Position numbers and translations under genes: made by a program. The notes under the pieces were generated by a model, which had not been told where the DNA came from, made no database searches, and saw only the letters and a program-made list of their open reading frames with translations. Positions 8,582 to 51,424 of a stretch of DNA of 64,000 nucleotides are shown piece after piece. Each line of letters starts with the position of its first letter. Position 1 is the stretch's first letter. The DNA comes from a virus (taxonomy: Duplodnaviria; Heunggongvirae; Uroviricota; Caudoviricetes), in the IMG/VR virus record IMGVR_UViG_3300028992_000036. One strand, written 5' to 3'.

Positions 8582-9472
8582 TTATGCCGGTAAAGCAATT
8601 TCTAACGGTTTATCCAAAGGTTGTTTGTCGAATGCCAGCAGTGGCAGCGTGTCAGGCAGTCGACGACCAAAGTCAGGGTTTCGATACACCCCATACAACG
8701 GAGACGTAAAGCTCAGGTTGTGAATGTCCTTGAGCAACTTCACAATGCTGGCCTCGTCCACCAGACTGTCGGCAATGTCCTGAATCGTCGTGCCACGATT
8801 CCGCCCAGCTTTTGCCAGGGAACTGTTCTTGTGGTAGTCCGCCACCAGATCACGCAGTGCACGGCGACGACGAGACTCGCTCATTGCGAACAACTCTTTG
8901 ACGATCGCCTCGTTATCACCCGGGTCGGAACGGAAATGGCGCTGGAATACACGCAGTGCACTTTCATAGCTCTTCGGTCGCTCAGGGCGGATGAACTTAA
9001 ACCCTGCTTTCATGGCGAAGGGATTGTATTTGCTCATCGAGGACTGGATCTCAATGATTGGCCGGTCATGCATCCTGCTAACCAGGTTAATCATTCGATA
9101 AGAGACGCCTACGCCACGATACTGAGTATCCACAACTGAGCGACTGATCACCGCAAAGTTGTTATTCACGTACCGACCCCAGTACTGGTTAGCCACGGTG
9201 GTATTAGTGGTTGGTTTCAACTTAGGAAACATGCGGTGGCGAGGTGCCAACAGTAGTTTCGGGTAAGCCATAACCACGACGCCCACCAGACGGTCATCAA
9301 GTTCGCAGCGATAGTAAGTTGGCGCGAAAGGTTTGCCGTCTGTTTTGTAGTGAAGCGACTTAAGAGCGTGCCAGTCCTCTACAGTTCCCTTTGTAACAGT
9401 CATTCGCTCCAGAAAGTCCAGATGACGCGGAAACTCTTCAGGGCGGTAGCGTTTAATGATGATGTCCGTCAT
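8582..9472 (-). CDS. hypothetical protein with GNAT-like motif (QYRGVGVSYRMINLV)
   Basis: 296-aa ORF; motif resembles acetyltransferase acetyl-CoA binding motif A; stop overlaps start of downstream ATPase. Confidence 0.4.
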   Translation of the reverse strand: MTDIIIKRYRPEEFPRHLDFLERMTVTKGTVEDWHALKSLHYKTDGKPFAPTYYRCELDDRLVGVVVMAYPKLLLAPRHRMFPKLKPTTNTTVANQYWGRYVNNNFAVISRSVVDTQYRGVGVSYRMINLVSRMHDRPIIEIQSSMSKYNPFAMKAGFKFIRPERPKSYESALRVFQRHFRSDPGDNEAIVKELFAMSESRRRRALRDLVADYHKNSSLAKAGRNRGTTIQDIADSLVDEASIVKLLKDIHNLSFTSPLYGVYRNPDFGRRLPDTLPLLAFDKQPLDKPLEIALPA

Positions 9473-10134
9473 GAATGGACCTCATCGTGACTACCATTGT
9501 GATATTCCACCTTCACGCGTTCTTTGTAGTGCTTGGTGATCTGCATATCCGGGCGCAGCGCGTTCTTCAGGTCTTCGTGAGTCGTCGCCACCATTACCGT
9601 CGCACCAACCTTTCGAGCGGCACGCTGGAGGTTAGACGCCACAACCTGAGCGGTTACACGGTCGAGAACAGCGCCGAACTCGTCAGCAGCCCACACTTTA
9701 GCGCCTGACTCAATCAGTTTGGCAATCTTGAGACGATATTTCTGGCCGTCTGACATTTCAGAAGGCTTGCGAACAAACAGATATGCATCGTTCAGACCAG
9801 CCATAGATAACAACCCAAGCGCATCACTGGTCGTTTTGCCCAACTGATCGATGACGTTAACCTCATTATCGAAGGTAAAATCATCGATGGAGGCTACAGA
9901 CAGCCCTTCATCCTTCATCTGTCGTTGCAACTCGCGCAGCACAACGGATTTGCCGGAACCGGATTGGCCGGTGATGTACACCACATCGCCCTGCTTCACT
10001 TCCAGCTCCAGATTGTCGTAAAGCGTCCACTCTTTTTCGTCCAGGCCAAGCCCGAACGACTCAGCGATTTCCAACGTGCGCGTGGTTTTATTTACGCGTG
10101 TCTGAAACGATACGTTGATGATGTATTTGCTCAT
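9469..10134 (-). CDS. stand-alone ABC-type ATPase domain protein
   Basis: Walker A GQSGSGKS, signature-like SDGQKYRL, Walker B VWAADEF, H-loop VATTHE; 221 aa with no transmembrane partner nearby. Confidence 0.65.
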   Translation of the reverse strand: MSKYIINVSFQTRVNKTTRTLEIAESFGLGLDEKEWTLYDNLELEVKQGDVVYITGQSGSGKSVVLRELQRQMKDEGLSVASIDDFTFDNEVNVIDQLGKTTSDALGLLSMAGLNDAYLFVRKPSEMSDGQKYRLKIAKLIESGAKVWAADEFGAVLDRVTAQVVASNLQRAARKVGATVMVATTHEDLKNALRPDMQITKHYKERVKVEYHNGSHDEVHS

Positions 10135-10799
10135 GCAGCCATCTCCCCGGAAGAGATCTTCTCCGCATATGCCACAAATGCGTCTACCCCGCTTTCTCCC
10201 GTCATTTCTTCCATGTGGGCAAGCAAATCACCAACAACAATGGCAGAGCCAGCAGGGAGCGTTTTAAAGCCCAATACGTCGACAACACGTACTTCTTCCG
10301 CTGCAACTTCACGACTGATCTCGGTGTGTTCATCCTTCTGTCGTTTAGTTTCTTCGCCAAGATCGATAACTAGCGAGTCGGTGTCCATTTCTTCTGTCAT
10401 ACTGCCAACGAGAACATTCAACTCACGCTCTTCAAAGCCGAAAACCTCGATATCGTCCAGAACAAGCGACTCAAGCTCTTTCTGTAGCTTAATTGCATCG
10501 TAATCAATGCTGGCAAGTCGGTTATCTTCAAGGCGCTTCGCACGAACCTCGTCATCACTGAGATCATCGCGAACAATAACCGGTACGCGCTCAAGTCCAG
10601 CAAAAATTGCAGCCTCACGGCGGCCGTGGCCAGTAATAATTACGTCGTTCTTATCGACCGTAATTGGCTGGTCAAATCCGCGCTTTTTAATGGCTGCGGC
10701 TAGATCTCGGATCTGCTGTTCATCATGCTTTTTGGCATTCATCTCATAGGGAATAAGATCTGCCGGGTCGCGATATACGATTTCAAACTTTTTGGTCAT
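10131..10799 (-). CDS. ParB-like nuclease domain protein (paralog 1); start curated to MTKKFEIVY
   Basis: ParB/Srx-type N-terminal motif IITGHGRREAA; TAATG overlap with upstream paralog. Confidence 0.65.
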   Translation of the reverse strand: MTKKFEIVYRDPADLIPYEMNAKKHDEQQIRDLAAAIKKRGFDQPITVDKNDVIITGHGRREAAIFAGLERVPVIVRDDLSDDEVRAKRLEDNRLASIDYDAIKLQKELESLVLDDIEVFGFEERELNVLVGSMTEEMDTDSLVIDLGEETKRQKDEHTEISREVAAEEVRVVDVLGFKTLPAGSAIVVGDLLAHMEEMTGESGVDAFVAYAEKISSGEMAA

Positions 10800-11497
10800 T
10801 ACATACGCTCCTTGTAGTAGTCGACCAGCCACACCAGAGCCTCACCAGCGTTCTCCATTTCATTACCGGTGTTAATAGCCTGCTCTTTGATGATGTTTTT
10901 TATGGTTTCTGCAACACGATCTGACGCATCGAAAGTTACTTTGAAGCGCATGGTCTGATGTTCCGCACCCACACGTTCGGTTTTCTCTCGTTTGTCGGTA
11001 TCGACAGGCTCATCACTACCACGAGACAACGCCTCCAGTGCTTCAAGGTCGATTGCCGCCTCTTTTGCTAAAACCATCGAGATTTCGTCGTCATACGGGG
11101 CGATTTCAGACAGTTGATAGTCAAGTTCTGACTGAATTTCTTCAATGAAGCGTTGCAATGCGATTTGGTCGTCTTCACCGTATCGCTCGTTGTCCACCAG
11201 TGACATCTGTTTAGCTACGACATCGCTAATTTTGCCCACAGAAAGCACCGGAACCGTTGAAATTCCTTGCTCAATAGCAGCACGCCAGCGATGTTCGCCG
11301 CCGAGGATTTCAAAAAATCCATCTTCAAGTTCACGAGCCAAAATTGGCTTAAAAAAGCCCAATTTTTCGATAGAACCTTTCAGTTTTTCAAAATTCTGCG
11401 CACCAACCGAATTGGTGTTCCAGGTATTCGGGCGAAGGTTGGCAACATCAACCTGCAAAATCGTGATTTTTACATCCATTTTATTGCTACAATCCAC
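10799..11497 (-). CDS. ParB-like nuclease domain protein (paralog 2)
   Basis: ParB box-like ILGGEHRWRAA; 232 aa; no ParA-type partner in window. Confidence 0.65.
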   Translation of the reverse strand: MDCSNKMDVKITILQVDVANLRPNTWNTNSVGAQNFEKLKGSIEKLGFFKPILARELEDGFFEILGGEHRWRAAIEQGISTVPVLSVGKISDVVAKQMSLVDNERYGEDDQIALQRFIEEIQSELDYQLSEIAPYDDEISMVLAKEAAIDLEALEALSRGSDEPVDTDKREKTERVGAEHQTMRFKVTFDASDRVAETIKNIIKEQAINTGNEMENAGEALVWLVDYYKERM

Positions 11498-13428: not shown

Positions 13429-13893
13429 ATGAAGTCTCCCATACTGTTCACTTTCTGTTCTAAAACTATCATGAAATACTCGCTTCTCCCTCTACTAACG
13501 TTACCAGTGTTGATGCTTACCGCGTGCCAATCACGCCCAATATCAATCCATGACGCCAAACCAGCACCGCAGGCCAAAGTGTTCAAGTATCAAAGCGCAG
13601 CGCCAGCTACGTTGGTGGTAATGAGAGACACAGGTTTTGTAGGAGCTGGATGTGATGCTTCCATTTTCATCAACGGCGAAACTGTCGCAAAACTGGCTAC
13701 AGGCGAAAAAGCGACTTTCCATTTAAATGCCGGAGAATTAATTGTGGGTGCATCTCTTGAAGGTGCAGGTTTATGTGCTCTAAACCCCGCTCGTCAAGAG
13801 CGAGAAACGACTCTGAAGAATGGAGACACAAAAGCGTTCAGGGTGTTCACCAGCAATTCTGGTGACATCGACATTCTGCCAACAACTCTGTGA
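13429..13893 (+). CDS. putative lipoprotein
   Basis: Signal peptide ending in lipobox LTAC; AGGGAGACAAAG Shine-Dalgarno (alternative start at 13471). Confidence 0.5.
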   Translation: MKSPILFTFCSKTIMKYSLLPLLTLPVLMLTACQSRPISIHDAKPAPQAKVFKYQSAAPATLVVMRDTGFVGAGCDASIFINGETVAKLATGEKATFHLNAGELIVGASLEGAGLCALNPARQERETTLKNGDTKAFRVFTSNSGDIDILPTTL

Positions 13894-13897
13894 TGAC

Positions 13898-14422
13898 ATG
13901 ACAACCAAAGATATTACCTACGGTATCCAAGCTGAACTCTGGCCGCGAGATTACACTAACGTTGAAAAACTACTGATGTTCTGGCGCAGAGAACAAATTC
14001 CTGTAAGGGTCACTCTCGAAGATGGCCAGGCGTTTTGCATGTACGTTTATGGCCTCATGCCATCTCGTAACAAAGTTGACCTTTGCCCAGCCCCTTTTGA
14101 CAAAGAAAATCGTATAAGGCTCCCACTTGAACGCATTAGTACAATTGAATCAGGTGTGGTTGACAGTATCGCTCACGATTTCAAAGGTCGACTAACAGTT
14201 CACCCTGATTATGTCGATAATCGGCCATCACGCCGCGATTTTTTTGCAATTTGCAACCAAGCCTACAAAGCAAACAAATCTATAAGGGTGTACATGGCGG
14301 ATGGCCGTGAAATTGAGGGGGTGTCAGCAGGCGCAGATGCTTGTCAGGTTACACTACGTGTCGAGAACGGTAGAAAAATAGTTGTTTTGTTCGATTGGGT
14401 TGAACGAATTTTGCCTTTTTGA
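13898..14422 (+). CDS. hypothetical protein (start curated to MTTKDITY)
   Basis: ATG 4 nt after the lipoprotein stop; ORF-track start at 13820 overlaps the upstream gene. Confidence 0.45.
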   Translation: MTTKDITYGIQAELWPRDYTNVEKLLMFWRREQIPVRVTLEDGQAFCMYVYGLMPSRNKVDLCPAPFDKENRIRLPLERISTIESGVVDSIAHDFKGRLTVHPDYVDNRPSRRDFFAICNQAYKANKSIRVYMADGREIEGVSAGADACQVTLRVENGRKIVVLFDWVERILPF

Positions 14423-15017: not shown

Positions 15018-15668
15018 ATGGCTAACATTATCATTTCTAAAAAATCCATCATTGAAGCTGCTTCCATTGTATCCGATGAACTGCGCGAAAAAGCAGATCT
15101 GGCAACTCAAACATATAACGAACATTATAAAAATGGTACGCACACTAAAGCAGACAAAGCAAATATGCAAGCTGCGACCACTAAACTTGCTTACTTCATC
15201 AACAACGTCGTAAACGCAGTAGAAGACGAAAAATTATGCTCTGTTTTCTACTATGCGATTAAAGCAAGCAAACAAGCGCCAGAAGTATTTTTCCGTGATG
15301 CAATGACTAATAGTTATTCTCTGGAAAAACTGGTTTATCTGGTTAAATCAATTAAATCTGGTAAATGCGTTTATTCCATCGCTGATATGTCAGGATCTCG
15401 TGTATTCGCTTTAATCGATATGATTAACGACGAGATCGACACGTTCACCAATGGCGCTGTTTTCGATTTAATGAATGAAGCTAAAAAAGCGTGCGAAATT
15501 AAATTGGACGCTGGCTATACTCAAGCCAACCAGTTGATCAATCTTTGCGAACGTCTTGGACTTGTTGAGAAAGTCAAAGGAATGGGAAGCGCAAAAGCTG
15601 GTACACAGCAATATCGCTTTATCAAGAATGATTTCTACAATTATTTAGCTGATGCTTTTAAAGCGTAA
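15018..15668 (+). CDS. hypothetical protein of AT-rich cassette
   Basis: 216-aa ORF with Shine-Dalgarno AAGGAAAAA; markedly AT-rich codon usage versus neighbours; followed by hairpin terminator. Confidence 0.5.
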   Translation: MANIIISKKSIIEAASIVSDELREKADLATQTYNEHYKNGTHTKADKANMQAATTKLAYFINNVVNAVEDEKLCSVFYYAIKASKQAPEVFFRDAMTNSYSLEKLVYLVKSIKSGKCVYSIADMSGSRVFALIDMINDEIDTFTNGAVFDLMNEAKKACEIKLDAGYTQANQLINLCERLGLVEKVKGMGSAKAGTQQYRFIKNDFYNYLADAFKA

Positions 15669-15718: not shown

Positions 15719-15922
15719 ATGGTCAGCTATGACAAGATCCGCGCAAAGTATCGCGCAAAGTATCGCGCTTATAAACTGGAATTAATCGATGATTTGATCG
15801 CGCAACGCGACCAATTAAATTTTACGTTTTCTGATTTGCTTAACAGCAAGCGAGATTGCAAGCGCAAACGTGAATACTTACGTTTAAGCGCATTAATCGG
15901 AAAACTTCAAAATTCTATTTAA
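15719..15922 (+). CDS. small basic protein (YRAKYRAKYRA repeat)
   Basis: 67-aa ORF with AAGGAGC Shine-Dalgarno. Confidence 0.4.
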   Translation: MVSYDKIRAKYRAKYRAYKLELIDDLIAQRDQLNFTFSDLLNSKRDCKRKREYLRLSALIGKLQNSI

Positions 15923-16178: not shown

Positions 16179-16205
16179 GAGCGCCCACTATGGGCGCTTT
16201 TTTTC
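16179..16205 (+). terminator. rho-independent terminator GCGCCCACTATGGGCGC + TTTTTTT
   Basis: Perfect stem followed by 7 T; second similar hairpin GCGCCAtcaTTGGCGC + T-run near 16228-16252. Confidence 0.55.
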
Positions 16206-16659
16206 GTTTCCAATACACCTACCATAACGCGCCATCATTGGCGCGTTTTTATTGTCTTTAACTCACTCCAACAACATAAAAATAAGCGCCAAAATAACGC
16301 CATAGACGCGCTTTTATATCCTTACCAGTACATGCCCATTACTTAACACATTAACGCGCTTAAAACGCATTATATTGCGCTATAGAGTATGGTTAATCAT
16401 TGGCTTTTAGTCTTGCTATGTGATCCGCGTTTATTTGTCGGTGCGGATCGGCATTTTGTTTTGTTCTGTATCCGCTCGCGTATTATGTGCGCGTGATTTT
16501 TCACATAATCACACCACTTAATCACGTATGTGATTATGCTACGAAAGAAATCTGGATGTCTCAGGCGACGAAAGTCATCATAATTTCCCCCGCTCACCTG
16601 TCCGACAACCGCTGGTTGGATTCCACCAGCTTCCCGATGTTTTTTCTACACAAAGGCGA

Positions 16660-16785
16660 ATGCAGCCGTTTCCCGAAAAAATCCTGGCCGTTCCCCGTCG
16701 GCTCATGAATACGTTCCTCGCCGTTTCTGAAAATTTCCCTGCGGCAGCTGGTGGCTATAGAGAAAGGGCCGTTTCTGGCCCTCTT
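16660..16785. repeat. iteron-like array, about 5 copies of GCCGTTTCCC(TGAAAA) at about 22-bp spacing
   Basis: Repeats at about 16666, 16688, 16712, 16721, 16769; same motif family as the array at 19790-19950. Confidence 0.5.
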
Positions 16786-16790
16786 CTCAG

Positions 16791-17273
16791 TTACACGCCA
16801 TCAAGGATGTGGATGCGGTTGCTTGCGTATACATTCAGCATAAAGTTAGCGCAAAACAGTTTCCATGTATCAACGCCAGCGGTATACGTAATGTTTTTGC
16901 ATTTAATTGCATTGTTGGCGATCCGCATCCCCTGCGATACTGCTTCATCGTCGGAAAATTTGAACGACGATTGAGTTTTAATCCAGACAGAAATCTGCGT
17001 AGCGAACTCAATCAGCTTGGACTGGCAGAATCGCCCGGAGCGCACCGGAAAGACGAACGTTCCGAATCCAGAATTTACCACATATGCTTTCTCAAATACC
17101 CGCGAGTAACGACGATTGCCAATGATGTCGCGTGCAATAATGCATTTTTCTTGTGCTGACAGTTCTACCGTCTCATTGTCGCGCCATGCACCAAGTACTC
17201 GTTTTTCAATGTCAGAGAACGTTACAGCGATATTGCCATGTGCGGGTGCGTTTACAGTAGCGATAAAATTCAT
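16791..17273 (-). CDS. hypothetical protein
   Basis: 160-aa ORF; TAAGGAATTAATC Shine-Dalgarno; upstream AACAAATTGTTTTCT palindrome. Confidence 0.5.
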   Translation of the reverse strand: MNFIATVNAPAHGNIAVTFSDIEKRVLGAWRDNETVELSAQEKCIIARDIIGNRRYSRVFEKAYVVNSGFGTFVFPVRSGRFCQSKLIEFATQISVWIKTQSSFKFSDDEAVSQGMRIANNAIKCKNITYTAGVDTWKLFCANFMLNVYASNRIHILDGV

Positions 17274-17623
17274 GATTAATTCCTTATCGTAAATAACAAA
17301 TTGTTTTCTTGTTGGTGTTAATTATCGTTGTACGAATAAGGCGTCAAAGTGGAAAGTTGCGGTAGCCGGACGGGAACAGGTGGGTTTGTCGGTTGCCTGG
17401 AGGTAAGAGGTTGGTGTTATTAGCCTGAGGGAAACAGGATGGTCATTTAAGACCACCAATGCTGGTGGCCTTAATAATTATCGCCCGATTACGCTAAGGA
17501 TCTTTTCCTCAACTGATTTGTTGTTGCGACTAAACTGCCTTGCGTATCTGATGACAGAAGAGGCGTTTTGCTTTCTGACCATCTCGGCTCTTTCCTTCAG
17601 GCGTTTCTTGAAATCGCCCATAT

Positions 17624-17998
17624 TTACCACCAGGCGCAGAAGGTCAGTCTGTTATTGTGAAAGTCGTGGTTCTTAATCAGATCTTCCACAAGCTCTTTCA
17701 ACTGCCCCACATCATGCCAGTAACCTTCGTCGTACTCCTGACTGCCGAAGAAAAAACCTTCCCGAGTAGGCAAGTACTCTTCGCAATTGCTTTCGTTTAT
17801 GTGCATCAAATGAGCTTTCAGAAGACAAATGTCATTCATCGTTAATTCTAAAAGCTCACAATTTTCGACTTCACCTACGTTGCGCTCCATCCACCCAACG
17901 AGCGCATTGAACTTACGGAAGTAAGCAACCTGCTTTCTGGATGCCTCGTTATTCAGATCGTTTTTAGGCTGTGTCTCGATATAGATATCAAGTCCCAT
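17624..17998 (-). CDS. hypothetical protein (start curated to MGLDIYIE)
   Basis: Internal ATG preceded by AAGGAAACC; the ORF-track ATG at 18040 lacks a ribosome-binding site. Confidence 0.5.
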   Translation of the reverse strand: MGLDIYIETQPKNDLNNEASRKQVAYFRKFNALVGWMERNVGEVENCELLELTMNDICLLKAHLMHINESNCEEYLPTREGFFFGSQEYDEGYWHDVGQLKELVEDLIKNHDFHNNRLTFCAWW

Positions 17999-18115
17999 GA
18001 TGGTTTCCTTATTAACTTGCTTCAGTAAAATCATTTTCACAAATCAGATAAGGCAGAAAACAAATTGTTATCGGGCTTAATAAAATGGCGCGGTTTACGC
18101 GCCATTTAAAGAGGA

Positions 18116-18511
18116 TTAAGCGAATACGCTTTCAGGGATTAAGGTGTCGGCAGGAATGCCAGAGGTAATGCGCAGGCCGTACTGACCAATCCAGGTAGTG
18201 TTGGTATTCAGGCTGGAGGCGAATACGGTGTTAACCATATTCATCATGGTTTCAAACACCTCTTCATCAACCTGGCGGAAGTAGTTCTCGATTTTCAGCA
18301 GCAGCGGGTCAGTTGCATCGAGAATGGACTGGTATTGAGTCGCGTACTCGCCGCCGGAGGCATCACCTTTACGCACGATCGTACTGGCCTGGACTTCGGC
18401 ACCAGTTTCGGTGTTGTACGTAACAACGGTAATTTTTGCCACATTCTTACCTTCGGCGGTTTCAGAGGCATAGTAAACATCAACTGTCAGTTTTTCGCGT
18501 TTAACGGTCAT
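18116..18511 (-). CDS. hypothetical protein
   Basis: 131-aa ORF with CTACGGAGAG Shine-Dalgarno. Confidence 0.5.
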   Translation of the reverse strand: MTVKREKLTVDVYYASETAEGKNVAKITVVTYNTETGAEVQASTIVRKGDASGGEYATQYQSILDATDPLLLKIENYFRQVDEEVFETMMNMVNTVFASSLNTNTTWIGQYGLRITSGIPADTLIPESVFA

Positions 18512-18574
18512 TTCACTCTCCGTAGTGTCTTGATTATTTTTCTATTTTATAATCGTAGGTATGTACTTACAATA

Positions 18575-18605
18575 CAAAAAAGCCCCGTAAGGATGGCGGG
18601 GCTGT
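18575..18605 (-). terminator. rho-independent terminator AGCCCCGCCATCCTTACGGGGCT + TTTTTT
   Basis: 7-bp GC stem followed by T6 on the minus strand, downstream of the 18638 gene. Confidence 0.6.
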
Positions 18606-18637
18606 CGTACGGTCGACTAATTACCACTTGCACATTA

Positions 18638-18949
18638 TCAGGCTATTGCCATCACTGATGCTCTCTGAATTTCTTGCTGGGCCACGCGGTTAACTTCCAT
18701 CAAAGCCAGTTCGAGCTGATGTTCCGGCCACATTCTTTGAAATGCCATCCAGCCTTTTCCACGCTGGCGACGAACATTCATTACATAACGAGTAAAGGTG
18801 TTTTTATCGAAAGACACCGCTGTTTCACGGAACAGACGAATAGAGGTTCCATTGGCAACGATGTCCAGCAAAGTTAATTGAGCAACCAGCGCAGGCTTCT
18901 CTTTTCTCTTCTGGTCTTTGTCCAGACCAAGAACCAATGATTTTTTCAT
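18638..18949 (-). CDS. hypothetical protein (start curated to MKKSLVLG)
   Basis: Internal ATG with ACGGAG Shine-Dalgarno; the ORF-track start is TTG inside the palindromic motif. Confidence 0.45.
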   Translation of the reverse strand: MKKSLVLGLDKDQKRKEKPALVAQLTLLDIVANGTSIRLFRETAVSFDKNTFTRYVMNVRRQRGKGWMAFQRMWPEHQLELALMEVNRVAQQEIQRASVMAIA

Positions 18950-19103
18950 CACAACTCCGTAAACAACTTGTTTTCTCAATGGCGTAAATAATACCAGTAA
19001 GAAAACGGCTACAAAGCATATTGATCAGGTGTATGAGCGATATGCAGGTTCTTCCCTGCGGCTACAGATGAAGTTAAGCCAGCATTGCTGGCTTTGGTTG
19101 GGT

Positions 19104-19433
19104 TTACTCGAATACTTCAAGAAACTCCTGAACGTCCCAATGCTGGACGAGGTGAAGATAGACCTTAGAAATCACGTCATTTTCGCTATCGCATGTGAAG
19201 TAGTACTTCTGGCTGCGGTTGTATGTGTCCACACAAAATTCGCTCATATCCATAAAGTCAGCATCTTCACCCATGTCGCAAATCATCAAAGCAGGTGCAT
19301 CATCACGAGTCATCAGCTCCAGCACCCATCTTGAATTAATCAGAGTGGAAGACCAACCTTCCAGCTCATAGAACTGGTCAAACTCTTTTTGAGTTAATTT
19401 CTTGATTTGGTTGATGTCGATATTTGCAAACAT
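19104..19433 (-). CDS. hypothetical acidic protein (start curated to MFANIDIN)
   Basis: Internal ATG preceded by TTTAAGGATTG; the first ATG lies inside the upstream palindrome. Confidence 0.45.
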   Translation of the reverse strand: MFANIDINQIKKLTQKEFDQFYELEGWSSTLINSRWVLELMTRDDAPALMICDMGEDADFMDMSEFCVDTYNRSQKYYFTCDSENDVISKVYLHLVQHWDVQEFLEVFE

Positions 19434-19789
19434 AAAGCAATCCTTAAACAACATGTTTTCTTGATGGTGTTATTATCGCAATAACGCACAGGCGAAAAAG
19501 GATTTTATTCCGGTGAATATGGTTTTGGCAGTGAGTTTTCAGGTTCAGTACCGAGTATACTTTTTACATTATTCTGATTTAGTGGCCGAAGGTGGCTGGT
19601 GGGCAGAATAATCCTCTCCCCGAAAACCTACTGAAATCGATTGTGACCCGTTGGCTGTCTGGCACAATTACGCTGTAGCTGGGCATTCAGAGGGAATCCA
19701 GCGGTAAGCAAGTCCGCCTACGTGAGCGCCTCTCTTCTTCCCGCACATTACAGGTGGGTAGCCGCAACTCTCCCTCTCGCTATACCGGT

Positions 19790-19950
19790 ACGCCGCCGTT
19801 CCTGAACCGGCATCGAGCCTTTTCCCGAAATCCACACAGGCAACTCGACCGTTTCCCTGAAAACCTCCAGCCGTTCCCCGAAGGCAACCCAGCCGTTTCT
19901 GTAGCGGGATGCAACCTTTTCCCTGTATGGACCGAAGGCTGACCGTAGGG
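19790..19950. repeat. iteron-like array, 6-7 copies of (A/G)GCCGTTTCCCTGAA at about 22-bp spacing
   Basis: Copies at about 19795, 19818, 19848, 19870, 19892, 19915, 19941; overlapping ORFs have non-protein-like composition. Confidence 0.5.
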
Positions 19951-20995
19951 GTGTTACGGGGGATAAAATCAGGAGTTGAATAAATACGAAAAAGGAGGCG
20001 ACACCCCTCCTTCCCTCCCCACTTATACATACCTGGCTTCTTCGCTATACATGTTGTGTTTTATCTGTCTCAACCTCTCTATAGGCGTTAATGCTCACTC
20101 CTTCCAGAATGTTCTATACGGCAACTATTTCTGTTGGTGAATTGGGTGTGTTGTTCTCTCTGTCGGTGTATGTGGTTTCGTTCGTTTTGCGGTGGTTCTT
20201 CTATGGGGTGTTCTCGTCGTTTTGGTGATTGTTCTTCTCCGTGTATGGAGTAATGGCAGGTGGGCGATTCCTTTCGTTGTTGTGTTTGAGTTGTTTGTCT
20301 GGAGTGTGTGAAAGGCTTTTGCAGTTATTCGTGTATTGGGTAATGGCATTTCCCGTGATTGTTGTGTTTCGTGTCTTTTGGGATTGAGAGAAACCTTGCG
20401 GTTACAGGCTTCGTTGGGGTTTCAGTGATTCTGGTGTTCTTCGCTGTTTGGGGAATGGCGTGTCGTGGGTATCGCGCGTATGAATGTTTTCGGATTGCCT
20501 GTGAAAGTTAGGTTGGTTGTCCGGTAGCCTGGGGAGAAGAGGTGGGTCTTTTCGGTAGCCTGCCATAAAGAGGTTGGTTGTTTTTGGAAATGGCATTTGT
20601 GTTATTTAGTTGTTTTGTTATGCCTGAAAATAAGTTGTTTATATGGTTGTGTAACGCAACGGGAGCGATTTTGAGCGTGTGTTTTTGTTGGTAGTATGTT
20701 GGGTCGTCTGTGGTGAAAATTGGACGCTGTGGCGCTGTCTGCTGCGTAGAGTTACGGGTATAAGCAGTGATGTGTGAAAACGTCAATTTTTTAGACCAAA
20801 TCGGGTGAAAGCGTTGATGTTTCGTTGATCTGTTATTCAGTTGTTTTCTTGATTGTATAAACAACTATAACTTATTGATATTTAAGGATGTGATTGCGGG
20901 TATGGAAGAAGAGTAGTGGCGATCAACGGATTCTTATAGAAAAGAATCAAATTGTGACCGCCATTATCAACTGATTGATTTGTTTACTTGTGTAG

Positions 20996-21394: not shown

Positions 21395-21594
21395 TTATCC
21401 CTCACAATTTCCAATTTTCCAGACCATCGTCTATTTCAGCGTCAGGGTGGAATTGTACCGCATCAAATCCTACATCGAGCACCTTTCGAATGTTCTTGAT
21501 GGTTAGACTGGCCCCCTGAATCTCCAGACAACCAGTATCACTTAAATAAGTGATAGTCTTAATACTAGTTTTTAGACTAGTCATTGGAGAACAG

Positions 21595-21960
21595 ATGATT
21601 GATGTCTTAGGGCCGGAGAAACGCAGACGGCGTACCACACAGGAAAAGATCGCAATTGTTCAGCAGAGCTTTGAACCGGGGATGACGGTCTCCCTCGTTG
21701 CCCGGCAACATGGTGTAGCAGCCAGCCAGTTATTTCTCTGGCGTAAGCAATACCAGGAAGGAAGTCTTACTGCTGTCGCCGCCGGAGAACAGGTTGTTCC
21801 TGCCTCTGAACTTGCTGCCGCCATGAAGCAGATTAAAGAACTCCAGCGCCTGCTCGGCAAGAAAACGATGGAAAATGAACTCCTCAAAGAAGCCGTTGAA
21901 TATGGACGGGCAAAAAAGTGGATAGCGCACGCGCCCTTATTGCCCGGGGATGGGGAGTAA
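21595..21960 (+). CDS. insC: IS2 transposase OrfA (InsC-like)
   Basis: Protein begins [56 protein letters not shown], matching recalled IS2 InsC. Confidence 0.8.
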
Positions 21961-22823
21961 GCTTAGTCAGCCGTTGTCTCCGGGTGTCGCGTGCGCAGTT
22001 GCACGTCATTCTCAGACGAACCGATGACTGGATGGATGGCCGCCGCAGTCGTCACACTGATGATACGGATGTGCTTCTCCGTATACACCATGTTATCGGA
22101 GAGCTGCCCACGTATGGTTATCGTCGGGTATGGGCGCTGCTTCGCAGACAGGCAGAACTTGATGGTATGCCTGCGATCAATGCCAAACGTGTTTACCGGA
22201 TCATGCGCCAGAATGCGCTGTTGCTTGAGCGAAAACCTGCTGTACCGCCATCGAAACGGGCACATACAGGCAGAGTGGCCGTGAAAGAAAGCAATCAGCG
22301 ATGGTGCTCTGACGGGTTCGAGTTCTGCTGTGATAACGGAGAGAGACTGCGTGTCACGTTCGCGCTGGACTGCTGTGATCGTGAGGCACTGCACTGGGCG
22401 GTGACTACCGGCGGCTTCAACAGTGAAACAGTACAGGACGTCATGCTGGGAGCGGTGGAACGCCGCTTCGGCAACGATCTTCCGTCGTCTCCAGTGGAAT
22501 GGCTGACGGATAATGGTTCATGCTACCGGGCTAATGAAACACGCCAGTTCGCCCGGATGTTGGGACTTGAACCGAAGAACACGGCGGTGCGGAGTCCGGA
22601 GAGTAACGGAATAGCAGAGAGCTTCGTGAAAACGATAAAGCGTGACTACATCAGTATCATGCCCAAACCAGACGGGTTAACGGCAGCAAAGAACCTTACA
22701 GAGGCGTTCGAGCATTATAACGAATGGCATCCGCATAGTGCGCTGGGTTATCGCTCGCCACGGGAATATCTGCGGCAGCGGGCTTGTAATGGGTTAAGTG
22801 ATAACAGATGTCTGGAAATATAG
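21918..22823 (+). CDS. insD: IS2 transposase OrfB (InsD-like, DDE catalytic domain; normally expressed as OrfAB by -1 frameshift)
   Basis: 301-aa ORF overlapping orfA in -1 frame; integrase-core-like region. Confidence 0.8.
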
Positions 22824-23024
22824 GGGCAAATCCAATGGTTTGCTATGTGACACCGTAATCACGCAGCTTTTCTTCCCTCCCCTGACTCCCCCATACTCCG
22901 TTTCTGTACCCAATTGAGTCCGAGATTGTATGGTGCTCGAAACAGATATTTGGTAGACACTCAGAGTCATGCTGTGTAACGAGGGTAGGGCTACTAACTG
23001 TCGTCTTATACAATTTGGTGAGTT

Positions 23025-49513: not shown

Positions 49514-49605
49514 ACATATCCACAGGATAGATCCTAATAAAGAGATCCATAGATAGATCCTTATATAGATCAAATAAGATCCCCGATCGCTGTAAGCCGC
49601 GCCAC
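49514..49605 (+). promoter_or_regulatory. origin-proximal region: DnaA-box-like ATATCCACA followed by cluster of 6 GATC sites
   Basis: Resembles organisation of P1-type oriR (DnaA box + GATC-rich AT-rich stretch) immediately upstream of iterons. Confidence 0.4.
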
Positions 49606-49628
49606 GACTGGTCTGAAGTCATGTTCAT

Positions 49629-49730
49629 GTATGCTGTCAGCGGTAATTGATAGTCTGTCAGCGGTTCACCGTATGCTGCCAACTGTTTTTGGTATTCTGT
49701 CAGCGGCAAATCAAGTATGCTGTCAGCGGT
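49629..49730 (+). repeat. origin iterons: 5 copies of (G)TATGCTGTCAGCGGT at 22-bp spacing
   Basis: Direct repeats at about 49629, 49651, 49671 (degenerate), 49693, 49715, ending 20 bp before the repA ATG. Confidence 0.75.
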
Positions 49731-49750
49731 TGAATGACAAAGGTGTCCAC

Positions 49751-50845
49751 ATGTCCACAAAAAATAAAAAAGGTAAAAATAACAAAGAAGTAGAAGATAA
49801 CATCGACAACTTTGAAGAAGGTTCCCTTGAATTGTACACAGGGGAACTTGTCCCTAATAGCAACAATACAGTCCAACCAATTGCGTTGATGCGACTGGGG
49901 TTGTTCGTCCCCACGCTTAAGGGAACAAAATACAGTAAACGTAACAAGCCAAATGAGATCGATGCTTCAAAGGAGCTTGTCCAGCTCGAAGTAGCCCGTT
50001 CTGAAGGCTATTCCGATATCAAGATAACCGGTCCTCGTCTCGACATGGATCATGATTTCAAAACGTGGGTGGGCGTTGTGCGTTCGCTGGCAGAATACGG
50101 CGAACCTAACGGTCGTGTCGAGTTAAGCATCACGAAATTTGCGAAGTTTTGTGGCTATCCATCGTCACAGATCCGCAAAACACTCCGCGACCGGCTTACA
50201 AACAGTCTTTTGAAGATCATGCGTACAACTCTGTCTTTCCAGAGAACGTATGAAGAAAAGAACGTCGACGGCTCTAACAAGATCTCGCTTCTGATGGTGC
50301 ACCTCATCAATAGCGTGGACTACAACGAGCAGAAAGATACGGTGGTGTTCTATGCAGAACCGAAGCTGGCCGAACTATATCGCTTTGACCATAAGGTTCT
50401 TTTGCAGTTAAAGGTTATCAATAAGCTACCACGCAAAGAAACAGCACAGGCTCTGTACACCTTCATCGAAAGTCTTCCAACCAAGCCTGCGCCGGTATCG
50501 CTTGCTCGATTGCGTGCGCGACTCAATTTGAGTAGCAGGAATGTCAGCTCGCAGAATCAGACTATACGTAACGGCTTAAAAGCTCTCCAAGATTTGGGCT
50601 ATCTCGAATACAGCGAGATTAAGCGTGGGCGGTCGATCTATATCCAGATTCACAGCCGCAATCCAAAACTCAAAGTCGCACCGCCAAAACCTGAAGACAT
50701 CGAACCCAAAAAACCAGATGAGAAAGCCGGGGAAATTGATGCCAAACAGAACATTATCAATAAGATAACCGAACTTTCGCAGAATTTGACGCCTGAAAAT
50801 ATCAAGATGATTGAGATCCTTTCCAATAGTCTCAAACTGCTTTGA
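49751..50845 (+). CDS. repA: plasmid replication initiator RepA-like (iteron-binding); start curated to MSTKNKKGK
   Basis: 364-aa basic protein flanked on both sides by arrays of the same 16-bp iteron; architecture of P1/F-type theta replicons. Confidence 0.7.
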   Translation: MSTKNKKGKNNKEVEDNIDNFEEGSLELYTGELVPNSNNTVQPIALMRLGLFVPTLKGTKYSKRNKPNEIDASKELVQLEVARSEGYSDIKITGPRLDMDHDFKTWVGVVRSLAEYGEPNGRVELSITKFAKFCGYPSSQIRKTLRDRLTNSLLKIMRTTLSFQRTYEEKNVDGSNKISLLMVHLINSVDYNEQKDTVVFYAEPKLAELYRFDHKVLLQLKVINKLPRKETAQALYTFIESLPTKPAPVSLARLRARLNLSSRNVSSQNQTIRNGLKALQDLGYLEYSEIKRGRSIYIQIHSRNPKLKVAPPKPEDIEPKKPDEKAGEIDAKQNIINKITELSQNLTPENIKMIEILSNSLKLL

Positions 50846-51377
50846 TATGCTGTCAGCGGTGAAATGTATGCTATCAGCGGCTATTTTTCTGAAAAGTATG
50901 CTGTGAACGGTTAAAGATATGCTACCAGCGGTATAGTGAGATGAACGTATGCTGTGAGCGGTAAATCATCTATCACCACTCAATGCTCTGCCATACCTCC
51001 CCAGTGGTTACTAACCTCGAAGAGTGCATTCCATATAGGTTTGCGCTCACTAACATTCTATTGCTATTGCGCTGATTGCTTGTAGTGAAAGGCATTTGTT
51101 GCCTGCTACTCCCTGATAGAATGTATGCTGTCAGCGGTGTTTTATTGAGGAATTTTTGTTTGGATATGCTATCAGCGGTAATTAATGGTATATGTCAGAC
51201 CTTCGTATGCTGCCAGCGGTAATTTTGTTCTGGTTATACCCATACCGGGACACATTATTCATGCAATGTCTTAAGTATGCTGTCAGCGGTAAAAAATCGA
51301 GTAAAGTATGCTGTGAGCGGTGAGATAGACTCTCGATATGCTATCAGCGGTAGTTGATTGTGTATGCTGTCAGCGGT
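50846..51377 (+). repeat. downstream iteron arrays (incA-like copy-control region): about 12 copies of GTATGCTGTCAGCGGT in two clusters
   Basis: Copies at about 50846, 50866, 50896, 50917, 50947 and 51123, 51164, 51204, 51274, 51305, 51335, 51362. Confidence 0.75.
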
Positions 51378-51424
51378 GACGACTATGAAATATGACTGCG
51401 GAACGTGCCGCAGTCAGTTTGCAT

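What the first reader, a model, noticed from the sequence alone, without database searches (positions are those of the whole stretch)
16660..16785. Iteron-like array A (about 5 copies of GCCGTTTCCC at about 22-bp phasing)
Tandem degenerate repeats of GCCGTT(T)CCC(TGAAAA) with two-helical-turn spacing, in a region whose overlapping ORFs look non-coding. The same motif recurs about 3 kb away at 19790-19950, and the two arrays bracket a cluster of four small minus-strand genes (16791-19433). Helically phased arrays are typical of centromere-like partition sites, secondary origins or cooperative operator arrays. The two ParB-like proteins at 10.1-11.5 kb are candidate binders.
Basis: seen in the sequence. 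Interest (0 to 1): 0.5.

Follow-up and report, generated by a model that had tools for sequence, protein, structure and literature searches.

The report
Paired phased repeat arrays, SSU5-like phage-plasmid
Two clusters of a 12-base motif (GCCGTTTCCCTG), mostly spaced two DNA turns apart, are real and conserved across the SSU5/pHCM2/pMT1 family of phage-plasmids; they look like docking sites for a plasmid-encoded DNA-binding protein, they are not the known plasmid replication repeats, and their job is still unknown.

Summary
The window is an SSU5-like phage-plasmid. Array A has three clear copies of GCCGTTTCCC(TG) at 16665, 16687 and 16720, plus a match inside a terminator hairpin at 16768. Array B has six copies between 19795 and 19914, spaced 22, 31, 22, 22 and 22 bp. 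The ten best motif scores in the window are exactly these sites, and a close relative shows no third cluster in the part of it examined. Both arrays occur throughout the family (about 770 plasmids). The 12-bp core is more conserved than the spacer, 22-bp spacing dominates, and whole 22-bp units are gained or lost. They are non-coding and show no conserved RNA fold. Each lies just past a minus-strand terminator, at either end of a variable block of small genes. RepA has different iterons (TATGCTGTCAGCGG), so RepA is excluded as the binder. The ParB-like proteins have only the N-terminal domain and acidic tails, so they are poor candidates. The best candidate binder is the neighbouring 216-aa protein. 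It has a predicted winged-helix domain with an invariant recognition helix, and its distant homologues are also followed by TTTCCC-type repeats, a second cluster and a G+T-rich stretch. Function is unresolved: lytic-origin organiser, centromere-like site or looping operator.

The parts
16665..16741 (+). Array A: three units, GCCGTTTCCCGAAAAAATCCTG (16665), GCCGTTCCCCGTCGGC... (16687) and GCCGTTTCTGAAAATTTCCCTG (16720), plus a degenerate copy at about 16710
   Evidence: The core is 94% conserved against 79% for spacers across 11 non-redundant relatives.
16757..16785 (-). Terminator-type hairpin of the 160-aa gene (GAGAAGAGGGCC AGAAAC GGCCCTTTCTC followed by a T-rich tail). Its + strand holds a fourth motif match at 16768-16777.
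   Evidence: RNAalifold keeps this hairpin on the minus strand
19795..19935 (+). Array B: six units starting at 19795, 19817, 19848, 19870, 19892 and 19914; spacing 22, 31, 22, 22, 22
   Evidence: Relatives gain or lose whole 22-bp units and a 9-bp spacer piece.
19941..19985 (.). Strongly conserved block GACCGTAGGGGTGTTACGGGGGATAAAATCAGGAGTTGAATAAATACG between array B and the terminator
19989..20015 (-). Minus-strand intrinsic terminator (GGGAAGGAGGGGTGTCGCCTCCTTTTT), immediately upstream of array B in the minus sense
20040..20900 (+). A stretch of about 850 bp that is G+T-rich on the + strand and looks non-coding (GC skew up to +0.57, AT skew down to -0.63). It is physically linked to array B in all relatives that keep array B.
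   Evidence: The ORFs there have no family match.
15018..15668 (+). 216-aa protein: N-terminal helical bundle plus C-terminal winged-helix domain. Best candidate binder of the arrays.
16179..16316 (+). Cluster of three to four tandem GCGC-stem terminator hairpins that shield the array A region from the + strand operon
   Evidence: Five such hairpins occur in CP027615.1.
16791..19454 (-). Bracketed block of small minus-strand genes (160, 138, 131, 113 and 116 aa, plus mini-ORFs). Its gene content and length vary among relatives.
   Evidence: (distance between arrays 1.5-4.5 kb)
16623..16630 (-). Chi site on the minus strand, left of array A
16747..16754 (+). Chi site on the + strand, right of array A. 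Together with 16623-16634 it forms a 12-nt inverted repeat around the array.

Best explanation
**What the arrays are.** Arrays A and B are arrays of binding sites for one sequence-specific DNA-binding protein encoded by the element. The best candidate is the neighbouring 216-aa winged-helix protein (15018-15668).

**How binding would work.** Each 22-bp unit carries an asymmetric 12-bp core (GCCGTTTCCCTG, invariant part CCGTTTC) and a free spacer. Successive proteins therefore sit on the same face of the helix and can bind cooperatively. This would build one nucleoprotein complex just past each of two minus-strand terminators, at the two ends of a variable accessory-gene block. Because both arrays carry the same motif in the same orientation, the two complexes can pair and loop out the roughly 3-kb block.

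**Function I commit to.** This is a second, phage-mode DNA-maintenance locus, distinct from the RepA plasmid origin. Array B, together with the adjoining strongly G+T-skewed 850-bp stretch, would act as an origin or priming zone. Array A would act as a distal helper site, in the manner of phage P4 ori/crr.

**Shown versus inferred.**
- Shown: the arrays, their phasing, their conservation, their non-coding nature, their distinctness from the RepA iterons, and their synteny with the winged-helix gene.
- Inferred: which protein binds, that the arrays pair, and that they serve replication.

**Layered confidence.** About 0.8 that these are protein-binding DNA arrays. About 0.45 that the winged-helix protein is the binder. 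About 0.3 that the function is origin-related. The single figure given is for the statement as a whole.
For: **Arrays are real and unique.** Motif enrichment is 7 hits against 0.9 expected. The ten best matrix scores are the array sites, and ~50 kb of a close relative holds no other cluster.

**Constraint typical of DNA binding sites.**
- The core is more conserved than the spacer: 0.94 against 0.79 in A, 0.75 against 0.63 in B.
- 214 of about 260 neighbour spacings across 88 loci are exactly 22 bp. The rest are mostly 44, 53 (22+31) or 31-34 bp. Many of these loci are near-identical, so the counts are not independent.
- Whole 22-bp units are gained or lost.
- The region matches about 770 PLSDB plasmids, including pMT1 and pHCM2-like ones.

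**Not RNA, not coding.** RNAalifold finds no conserved structure on either strand apart from the terminators. Rfam gives no match. Relatives carry frame-breaking indels.

**Placement.** Both arrays lie 15-45 bp beyond a minus-strand terminator. Array A is also shielded by three to five tandem + strand terminators. This fits a DNA site that must stay free of transcription.

**Binder candidate.**
- The recognition-helix segment YTQANQLI is the most invariant part of the protein.
- The family is tiny: 23 proteins among 1.84 billion representatives.
- In relatives sharing only 31-33% identity, the winged-helix gene is again followed by TTTCCC-type repeats. In two of these three, a variable gene block, a second cluster and a G+T-rich stretch follow as well. 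The 160-aa gene is absent from these contigs.
- The most distant homologue has a changed helix and is followed by a different repeat.

**Origin-like reading.**
- The element carries its own replisome: DnaE, DnaB-like helicase, primase and ligase, and a UvsW-type helicase about 3.5 kb from array A. No lytic origin has been assigned.
- The extreme GC skew beside array B is conserved with it.
- Three + strand Chi sites lie just left of array B.
Against: - The ABC ATPase, the two ParB_N genes and the helicase are equally syntenic with the arrays, so synteny does not single out the winged-helix protein.
- No AT-rich unwinding element, conserved DnaA box or helicase-loader gene lies next to either array.
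- No promoter was predicted that would transcribe the G+T-rich stretch.
- In the divergent relative CP027615.1 the same core occurs at spacings of 37, 34 and 28 bp. In L334 the copies are densely packed. Strict two-turn phasing is therefore not universal.
- An AT-rich palindromic region beside the helicase/primase module (L011 23600-23740) is an alternative candidate for the lytic origin.
- Cumulative GC skew shows no origin-type inflection here apart from the G+T block itself.
Confidence: 0.35

Rival explanations
1. Dispersed centromere (parS/parC-like) for the element's small type Ib ParA and its 117-aa partner protein. These are encoded about 40 kb away, outside the window (CP056250.1 33596-34623). 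The small protein would coat the arrays and ParA would segregate the plasmid copies.
For: - The ParA-like ATPase (MipZ/CbiA hits) is followed by a small protein whose sequence pattern looks ribbon-helix-helix by eye.
- No repeat array lies next to that operon, only one palindrome, GAAAACAAGTTGTTTC. No other phased array was found in the element apart from the RepA iterons.
- The N-terminal arm and strand of the 117-aa protein (RPQGRPTRGK..IKSRTMS.EDE) are invariant between 48%-identical variants, and the array core is also the same in those two elements.
- The par palindrome shares GTTTC/GAAAAC with the array unit.
- Precedents for dispersed or doubled centromeres, from my own knowledge: pSM19035, N15, pB171 parC1/parC2.
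Against: - The centromere would be about 40 kb from its par genes.
- The motif matrix gives no significant hit in the par promoter (maximum 5 bits).
- The ribbon-helix-helix assignment has no Pfam or PDB support.
- Yersinia pMT1 plasmids lack this protein yet keep an intact array A.
- The shared pentamer could easily be chance.
Confidence: 0.2
2. Cooperative operator arrays that control or insulate the bracketed accessory-gene block. A regulator, possibly the same winged-helix protein, binds both ends and loops the DNA, as lambda CI does between OL and OR, to repress or activate the minus-strand genes.
For: - The arrays sit exactly at the 5' end (B) and the 3' end (A) of a co-oriented gene block in all relatives, even where the genes differ.
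- A regulator-type winged-helix gene lies next door.
- Some genes in or next to the block are expressed in the Cyrano lysogen (CYRAN_109, CYRAN_102; PMC9928086).
Against: - Units are asymmetric direct repeats, not palindromic operators.
- No predicted sigma-70 promoter overlaps either array. The nearest one is about 265 bp from array B, and array A faces no protein-coding gene.
- The model does not explain the linked G+T-rich stretch or the heavy terminator shielding.
Confidence: 0.22
3. Loading sites for the two ParB-like proteins at 10131-11497, perhaps acting as a heterodimer that reads an asymmetric site.
For: - Both proteins carry the ParB N-terminal (CTPase-type) domain, with a GGEHRWRAA motif in the second.
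- They are syntenic with the arrays in every relative examined.
- The array core CGTTTCCC is a hybrid of the parS half-site TGTTTCAC and the Noc NBS half-site TATTTCCC (sequences confirmed in PMC7383237).
Against: - Scores fall below the partition-family cut-offs: 43 bits against 58.
- No helix-turn-helix was detected. The region that aligns to the Spo0J helix-turn-helix is acidic (PYDDEISMVLAKE), and both C-terminal halves are rich in Asp and Glu.
- Sites are not palindromic.
- A match of 6 out of 8 positions to a half-site is weak evidence.
Confidence: 0.08
4. The repeats act at the RNA level. One version is a CsrB/RsmZ-like sponge, since the minus-strand reading CAGGGAAACGG contains GGA. 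Another is a + strand RNA with multiple UUUCCC anti-Shine-Dalgarno loops.
For: - Seven of the nine units contain GGA on the minus strand, and unit 19914 reads AUACAGGGAAAA, close to the CsrA SELEX consensus (from my own knowledge).
- The 22-nt spacing suits CsrA dimers.
- Several units have short GCCG...CGGC stems.
Against: - No conserved secondary structure on either strand: consensus energies are -2.5 and -4.6 kcal/mol for array B.
- The invariant part of the motif is CCGTTTC, not the GGA-forming bases. The TTTCTG variants lack GGA.
- Both arrays lie downstream of terminators on the minus strand, and no promoter was predicted.
- Rfam gives no match.
- Spacings fall in multiples of about 11 bp, and copies are lost in whole units. 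That is a DNA-geometry constraint.
Confidence: 0.03
5. The arrays are additional iterons of the plasmid initiator RepA, serving copy-number control by handcuffing or a secondary RepA origin.
For: The 22-bp phasing, and two clusters flanking genes, recall P1 incC/incA.
Against: - The RepA (Rep_3) iterons are TATGCTGTCAGCGG at 49609-49750 and 50846-51397. They have no similarity to GCCGTTTCCC.
- Relatives with different Rep types (IncFIB, rep_cluster_488, 763, 2469) keep the same array motif.
Confidence: 0.01

Closest known systems
Iteron arrays of theta-replicating plasmids and plasmid prophages (P1 incC/incA, F ori2/incC, R6K, RK2)
   Same: Asymmetric direct repeats with a conserved core and a free spacer, at about 22-bp (two-turn) phasing. 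There are two clusters in the same orientation separated by genes, and copy number varies by whole units.
   Different: No Rep-type initiator gene lies beside them. The element's real RepA iterons are elsewhere and have a different sequence. No AT-rich unwinding element or DnaA boxes are adjacent.
Phage P4 ori/crr (also SPP1 oriL/oriR): a bipartite origin with two clusters of initiator-binding repeats kilobases apart
   Same: Two clusters of the same short motif 1.5-4.5 kb apart, with a variable distance between them, in a phage-plasmid-type element that also needs a lytic origin.
   Different: P4 alpha is a large primase-helicase, whereas here the candidate binder is a 216-aa winged-helix protein. 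Replication from this locus has not been shown.
Centromeres bound by winged-helix or small adaptor proteins: TubR-tubC (pBtoxis, C. botulinum phage c-st), pSK1 Par, R388 StbA-stbDR, R1 ParR-parC, pB171 parC1/parC2
   Different: No TubZ, ParM or ParA motor gene lies next to the arrays. The only ParA-type operon is about 40 kb away. The fold match is weak and generic.
Lambda OL/OR operator triplets with long-range CI looping
   Same: Three to six sites at a spacing of about two turns, in two clusters 2-4 kb apart, flanking genes that are partly expressed in the lysogen.
   Different: Lambda operators are palindromic, overlap divergent promoters and face each other. Here the units are asymmetric, co-oriented and not at recognisable promoters.
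ParB/Noc sites (parS TGTTTCACGTGAAACA, NBS TATTTCCCGGGAAATA)
   Same: The core CGTTTCCC resembles one half-site of both. ParB_N-domain genes lie about 5 kb away.
   Different: The units are not palindromic, the second half is degenerate, and the ParB-like proteins lack a detectable DNA-binding helix-turn-helix.

Membership tests
Iteron-regulated plasmid origin (Rep-iteron) | Tandem direct repeats of 17-22 bp at about 22-bp phasing | tested here: met
   Spacings are 22, 33 in A and 22, 31, 22, 22, 22 in B. 22 bp dominates across 88 loci.
Iteron-regulated plasmid origin (Rep-iteron) | Adjacent gene for the Rep initiator that binds the repeats | tested here: not met
   Neighbouring genes have no Rep domain. 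The Rep_3 gene lies 33 kb away and has different iterons.
Iteron-regulated plasmid origin (Rep-iteron) | AT-rich unwinding element and DnaA/IHF sites next to the repeats | tested here: not met
   Flanks are 38-48% GC with no AT-rich 13-mer repeats. The only DnaA-box-like string (AAATCCACA in unit B2) is not conserved in relatives.
Iteron-regulated plasmid origin (Rep-iteron) | Supports autonomous replication or exerts incompatibility | not testable with these tools
   Needs cloning and replication or incompatibility assays.
Plasmid partition centromere (type I/II parS, parC) | Cluster of repeated binding sites for a centromere-binding protein | tested here: met
   Repeat architecture as above. 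Binding itself was not tested.
Plasmid partition centromere (type I/II parS, parC) | Located beside, or within, the par operon (NTPase plus adaptor) | tested here: not met
   The ParA-like operon is about 40 kb away in CP056250.1 and has no such repeats.
Plasmid partition centromere (type I/II parS, parC) | Stabilises a plasmid in cis and causes incompatibility in trans | not testable with these tools
   Requires experiment.
ParB-parS (type Ia, CTP clamp) | 16-bp palindromic parS | tested here: not met
   Units are asymmetric. Only a half-site resemblance exists.
ParB-parS (type Ia, CTP clamp) | ParB with N-terminal CTPase domain plus a helix-turn-helix DNA-binding domain | tested here: inconclusive
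   The N-domain is present. No helix-turn-helix was detected and the C-terminal halves are acidic. No structure model was made.
TubZRC type III partition | Winged-helix TubR-like adaptor next to iterated tubC repeats | tested here: inconclusive
TubZRC type III partition | Adjacent tubulin-like GTPase TubZ | tested here: not met
   No such domain was found in the neighbouring proteins that were scanned.
CsrB/RsmZ-type protein-sponge RNA | GGA motifs presented in conserved hairpin loops of a discrete transcript with its own promoter and terminator | tested here: not met
   No conserved hairpins. GGA is not the invariant part of the motif. The arrays lie downstream of terminators. Rfam has no match.
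Lambda-type operator arrays | Palindromic operators overlapping divergent promoters | tested here: not met
   Units are asymmetric and no overlapping promoter was predicted.

The most novel reading that the evidence does not exclude
The arrays, the conserved block and the 850-bp G+T-skewed stretch together form the unidentified lytic origin of the whole SSU5/pHCM2/pMT1/pKPHS1 supergroup. A new, very narrowly distributed family of winged-helix initiators (23 members among 1.84 billion representative proteins) would bind two iteron clusters. It would trigger initiation in a strongly GC-skewed, R-loop-prone zone. A UvsW-type helicase encoded about 3.5 kb away would then play the R-loop-resolving role known from phage T4.
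Probability: 0.25. Interest if true: 0.65.

Novelty: new variant of a known kind. Interest (0 to 1): 0.45.

Why it matters
SSU5-like phage-plasmids are among the commonest phage-plasmids of Enterobacteriaceae. About 770 plasmids in PLSDB carry this locus, including Yersinia pestis pMT1, Salmonella Typhi pHCM2-like plasmids and Klebsiella IncpKPHS1 plasmids, and members of the family spread resistance genes.

Only their RepA replicon has been described. No lytic origin, centromere or switch operator has been mapped, and my literature searches found no description of these repeats.

These are the only two clusters of this motif found in the window or in the ~50 kb of a close relative that was scanned. 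They are conserved down to relatives whose neighbouring proteins share about 30% identity, which makes them a prime candidate for one of the missing cis-acting sites. They also give a concrete handle for experiments: incompatibility-based curing, copy-number control and typing.

If the winged-helix protein is the binder, it defines a new small family of DNA-binding proteins with a known target motif.

Tried and rejected
1. **Collection-wide pattern scans.** I searched for three phased copies of the motif in viral contigs and genome contigs. The hits I inspected were dominated by unrelated microsatellite-like (CCGTTT)n and Gly/Asn-type coding repeats.
2. **Literature lead on IncpKPHS1 iterons.** PMC6735626 describes 'four iterons downstream of repA'. 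These are the RepA iterons of the Rep_3 gene, not these arrays.
4. **RNA hypotheses (CsrA sponge, anti-Shine-Dalgarno RNA).** Rejected on the RNAalifold and Rfam results and on the position behind terminators.
5. **Ribbon-helix-helix assignments.** My reading of the 117-aa par protein and of the ParB-like C-termini as ribbon-helix-helix has no Pfam or PDB support. Both are kept only as by-eye leads.
6. **Promoters beside the arrays.** I looked for sigma-70 and sigma-54 promoters flanking the arrays. Nothing convincing emerged. A TGGCAC...GC element at 19661 has the wrong spacing.
7. **Cumulative GC skew.** It gives no origin signal beyond the G+T block itself.
8. **AFDB fold search.** The library was unavailable. 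A BFVD search gave only weak small helix-turn-helix hits.
9. **Identity of the window.** I first assumed the window was plasmid CP056250.1. It is a close relative, not the same molecule.

Full report
**Identity of the window.** The 5.5 kb around the finding is 94-98% identical to Escherichia phages CMS-2020a, Cyrano and PhiR41_1. It is more distantly related to Salmonella phage SSU5 and to Klebsiella phage-plasmids. A 741-bp piece is 100% identical to E. coli plasmid CP056250.1, but the window is a close relative of that plasmid, not the same molecule. The element is therefore an SSU5-like phage-plasmid of about 110 kb.

**The observation.** Reading the sequence gives the following copies.

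| Array | Unit starts | Spacing (bp) | Notes |
|---|---|---|---|
| A | 16665, 16687, 16720 | 22, 33 | Degenerate copy near 16710; a match at 16768 lies in the stem-loop of the minus-strand terminator of the 160-aa gene (16757-16785) |
| B | 19795, 19817, 19848, 19870, 19892, 19914 | 22, 31, 22, 22, 22 | The better array |

- GCCGTTYCYS occurs 7 times in 64 kb, always on the + strand and only in the two arrays. Chance expectation is 0.9, and no shuffle out of 100 reached 7.
- A weight matrix built from the nine units ranks the ten array sites as the ten best + strand scores in the window.
- That matrix finds nothing comparable in the 50 kb examined of CP056250.1.
- The consensus unit is a 12-bp asymmetric core, GCCGTTTCCCTG, followed by about 10 variable bases. 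The bases after the core are often A-rich (GAAAA).

**Conservation.**
- Both arrays are present in SSU5, five Klebsiella elements, and Enterobacter and Cronobacter plasmids.
- Yersinia pestis pMT keeps array A. It has lost array B and the adjoining DNA next to an IS1541 insertion.
- In PLSDB, 769 plasmids match the array A region.
- Across 88 fetched loci, 214 of about 260 neighbour spacings are exactly 22 bp. Most of the others are 44, 53 (22+31) or 31-34 bp. Many of these loci are near-identical, so the counts are not independent.
- In alignments of non-redundant representatives, whole 22-bp units, and in one place a 9-bp spacer piece, are gained or lost.
- Core columns are more conserved than spacer columns: 0.94 against 0.79 in A and 0.75 against 0.63 in B.
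- The distance between the two arrays ranges from 1.5 to 4.5 kb, because the genes between them differ.
- In the divergent relative CP027615.1 the same core recurs, but at spacings of 37, 34 and 28 bp. The strict two-turn phasing therefore holds for the main group, not for every relative.

**Not coding, not RNA.** The frame-breaking indels exclude the overlapping ORFs. RNAalifold on both strands finds no conserved structure other than the two minus-strand terminator hairpins. Rfam gives nothing. On the minus strand the units read CAGGGAAACGG, which recalls CsrA sites. However, the invariant bases are CCGTTTC rather than the GGA-forming ones, and both arrays lie just downstream of terminators on that strand. 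I therefore treat the repeats as DNA sites.

**Placement.**
- Array A lies in a convergent gap. To its left are three to four tandem GCGC-stem terminators of the + strand operon; CP027615.1 has five. To its right is the terminator of the 160-aa gene.
- Array B lies between the minus-strand terminator at 19989-20015 and the next minus-strand gene, which starts at 19454.
- The arrays therefore mark the 3' end and the 5' end of a co-oriented block of small genes of unknown function (PHROG families only).
- No sigma-70-like promoter overlaps either array.

**What the arrays are not.** The plasmid initiator is a Rep_3 protein at 49631-50845. It has five iterons upstream and at least eleven downstream, all of the form TATGCTGTCAGCGG, a layout like P1 incC/incA. 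The 'iterons downstream of repA' reported for IncpKPHS1 plasmids (PMC6735626) are these, because repA of p11219-CTXM is the Rep_3 homologue. Relatives with different replicon types keep the GCCGTTTCCC arrays. RepA is excluded as the binder.

**Candidate binders.**

*The two ParB-like proteins (10131-11497).*
- They match only the ParB N-terminal domain.
- Their scores fall below the partition-family cut-offs.
- Their C-terminal halves are very acidic, with no detectable helix-turn-helix.
- The core CGTTTCCC does resemble a hybrid of the parS half-site TGTTTCAC and the Noc half-site TATTTCCC (PMC7383237). But the units are not palindromic, and I rate this as probably coincidental.

*The small ParA-like ATPase and its 117-aa partner.*
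- They lie about 40 kb away in CP056250.1.
- No repeat array lies beside that operon, only a palindrome GAAAACAAGTTGTTTC.
- The N-terminal arm of the 117-aa protein is invariant between 48%-identical variants.
- The protein is absent from Yersinia pMT1, which keeps array A.
- Its ribbon-helix-helix character has no support from Pfam or PDB searches.

*The 216-aa protein (15018-15668), about 1 kb left of array A.*
- It models as an N-terminal helical bundle plus a C-terminal winged helix (pLDDT 84).
- Its recognition-helix segment YTQANQLI is the most invariant stretch of the protein.

**Distant relatives.** A profile search of 1.84 billion representative proteins finds only 23 members of the 216-aa family. 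I examined three contigs whose family members share 31-33% identity with the window protein: L334, L337 and L332.
- All three keep the gene order ParB_N (a pair in L334 and L332), helicase, ..., winged-helix gene, with the ABC ATPase also visible in L334 and L332.
- In each, TTTCCC-type repeats follow immediately after the winged-helix gene. L334 has densely packed CCGTTTCCCG copies. L337 has CCTTTTCCC copies. L332 has two palindromic GGGAAAAC(G/T)TTCCCTTTC sites.
- A variable minus-strand block follows, without the 160-aa gene.
- In L334 and L337 a second cluster follows, and then a G+T-rich stretch.
- The Thr-Gln...Gln residues of the recognition helix are conserved in all of them.
- The most distant member, P0174, shares 21% identity and has the helix TQTGKIF. 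It is followed by a different direct repeat, CCCTTATA..GCGCATTGG.

This co-conservation, with one hint of co-variation, makes the winged-helix protein the best candidate binder. The ParB_N genes and the helicase (and, where visible, the ABC ATPase) are equally syntenic, so it is not proof.

**The linked G+T-rich stretch.**
- Directly right of array B, 20040-20900 is extremely G+T-rich on the + strand (GC skew up to +0.57, AT skew down to -0.63).
- Its ORFs have odd low-complexity translations and no family match.
- The skew is conserved at the same position in every relative that has array B, including L334 and L337.
- Chi sites are enriched in the window: 13 against 1.4 expected. Four of them lie within 16.6-19.6 kb. 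Two oppositely oriented ones bracket array A as part of a 12-nt inverted repeat.

**Mechanism.**
- Well supported: the arrays are cooperative binding sites for an element-encoded DNA-binding protein. They are placed on one helical face and kept free of transcription.
- Inferred: the binder is the 216-aa winged-helix protein, and the two arrays pair.
- Function: I lean towards a second, phage-mode maintenance locus, an origin organiser in the manner of P4 ori/crr. The reasons are as follows.
  - The element has its own replisome but no assigned lytic origin.
  - A UvsW-type helicase gene lies nearby.
  - The model also accounts for the GC-skewed stretch, the terminator shielding and the Chi cluster.
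- This reading lacks an AT-rich unwinding element and a mapped promoter. An AT-rich palindromic region beside the helicase/primase genes is a competing origin candidate.
- A dispersed centromere for the ParA system, or looping operators for the accessory block, remain nearly as likely.

**Comparison with known systems.** The architecture is that of iterons and centromere repeats, a known kind of element. It fails the defining adjacency tests:
- no Rep gene beside it, as a Rep-iteron origin would have;
- no par operon beside it, as a type I or II centromere would have;
- no palindrome, as a ParB-parS site would have;
- no TubZ gene, as a TubZRC system would have;
- no palindromic operators overlapping promoters, as lambda-type operators would have.

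It is best described as a new variant: paired, co-oriented arrays bracketing a variable gene block, coupled to a strongly skewed non-coding stretch and to a narrowly distributed winged-helix family. My searches of the held literature found no description of these repeats.

Noticed in passing
window 20040-20900: A stretch of about 850 bp with extreme strand asymmetry (G+T-rich on the + strand; GC skew up to +0.57, AT skew down to -0.63). It looks non-coding and carries dispersed GGNAATGGCA repeats at 20251, 20341, 20454 and 20588. It is conserved next to array B in all relatives that have array B, including contigs whose proteins share about 30% identity. Its function is unknown; possibilities include an R-loop or priming zone, or a Rho-loading CA-rich transcript.
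   Followed up: partly
window 16623-16630(-), 16747-16754(+), 17461(+), 19595(+), and nine others: Chi (GCTGGTGG) is enriched about tenfold: 13 sites against 1.4 expected. Four sites lie within 3 kb around the arrays. Two oppositely oriented sites bracket array A within a 12-nt inverted repeat (CCACCAGCTTCC / GGCAGCTGGTGG).
   Followed up: partly
window 49518-49750 and 50846-51397: The plasmid replicon has a P1/F-like layout. GATC-rich GATAGATCC repeats and five TATGCTGTCAGCGG iterons at 21-bp spacing lie upstream of the Rep_3 repA gene. At least eleven more iterons lie downstream, in an incA-like arrangement.
   Followed up: yes
window 16179-16316 (also L089 10520-10800): An unusual run of three to five tandem terminator-like hairpins with GCGC stems and T-runs, after the + strand operon and ahead of array A. 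These could be strong insulation or a set of small RNA 3' ends.
   Followed up: no
window 16495-16540: Operator-like repeats ATAATCACA / TGTGATTAT, including a perfect 10-nt inverted repeat (16504-16513 and 16529-16538), with weak minus-strand promoter matches at 16604-16533. This may be a small regulatory unit left of array A.
   Followed up: no
window 20929-20948; L089 about 15737-15768: A hairpin whose stem differs between relatives while the loop is kept: GATTCTT-ATAGAA-AAGAATC here, against CAACCTCT-CCTTATAGAAACTGC-AGAGGTTG in CP027615.1. The stem changes are compensatory. It sits at the far end of the G+T-rich stretch.
   Followed up: no
window 8582-11497 (minus strand): An operon of a 296-aa protein, a short ABC-type ATPase and two paralogous ParB N-domain proteins with very acidic C-terminal halves. 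Its synteny is kept in all relatives. It is not a canonical partition system, and its function is unknown.
   Followed up: partly
window 13820-14422: A full-length homologue of FljA, the 'repressor of phase-1 flagellin' (Pfam PF03614, E 2.5e-84). It is conserved in the family and duplicated in L338. It may let the phage-plasmid modulate host flagellin expression.
   Followed up: no
window 21504-22834: An IS3-family insertion (rve integrase core domain at 21918-22823). It is present at another position in CP056250.1, so the window is not collinear with that plasmid.
   Followed up: partly
L011 24597-25624 (CP056250.1 33596-34623; outside the window): A small ParA-like ATPase (222 aa) plus a 117-aa protein with a ribbon-helix-helix-like sequence pattern. 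There is no adjacent repeat array, only the palindrome GAAAACAAGTTGTTTC in the promoter. This partition system has no identified centromere.
   Followed up: partly
L335 2740-2815: The most distant homologue of the 216-aa winged-helix protein (P0174) is followed by a different direct repeat, CCCTTATA(A/G)C...GCGCATTGG, in two copies. This may be co-variation between the recognition helix and the repeat motif.
   Followed up: no
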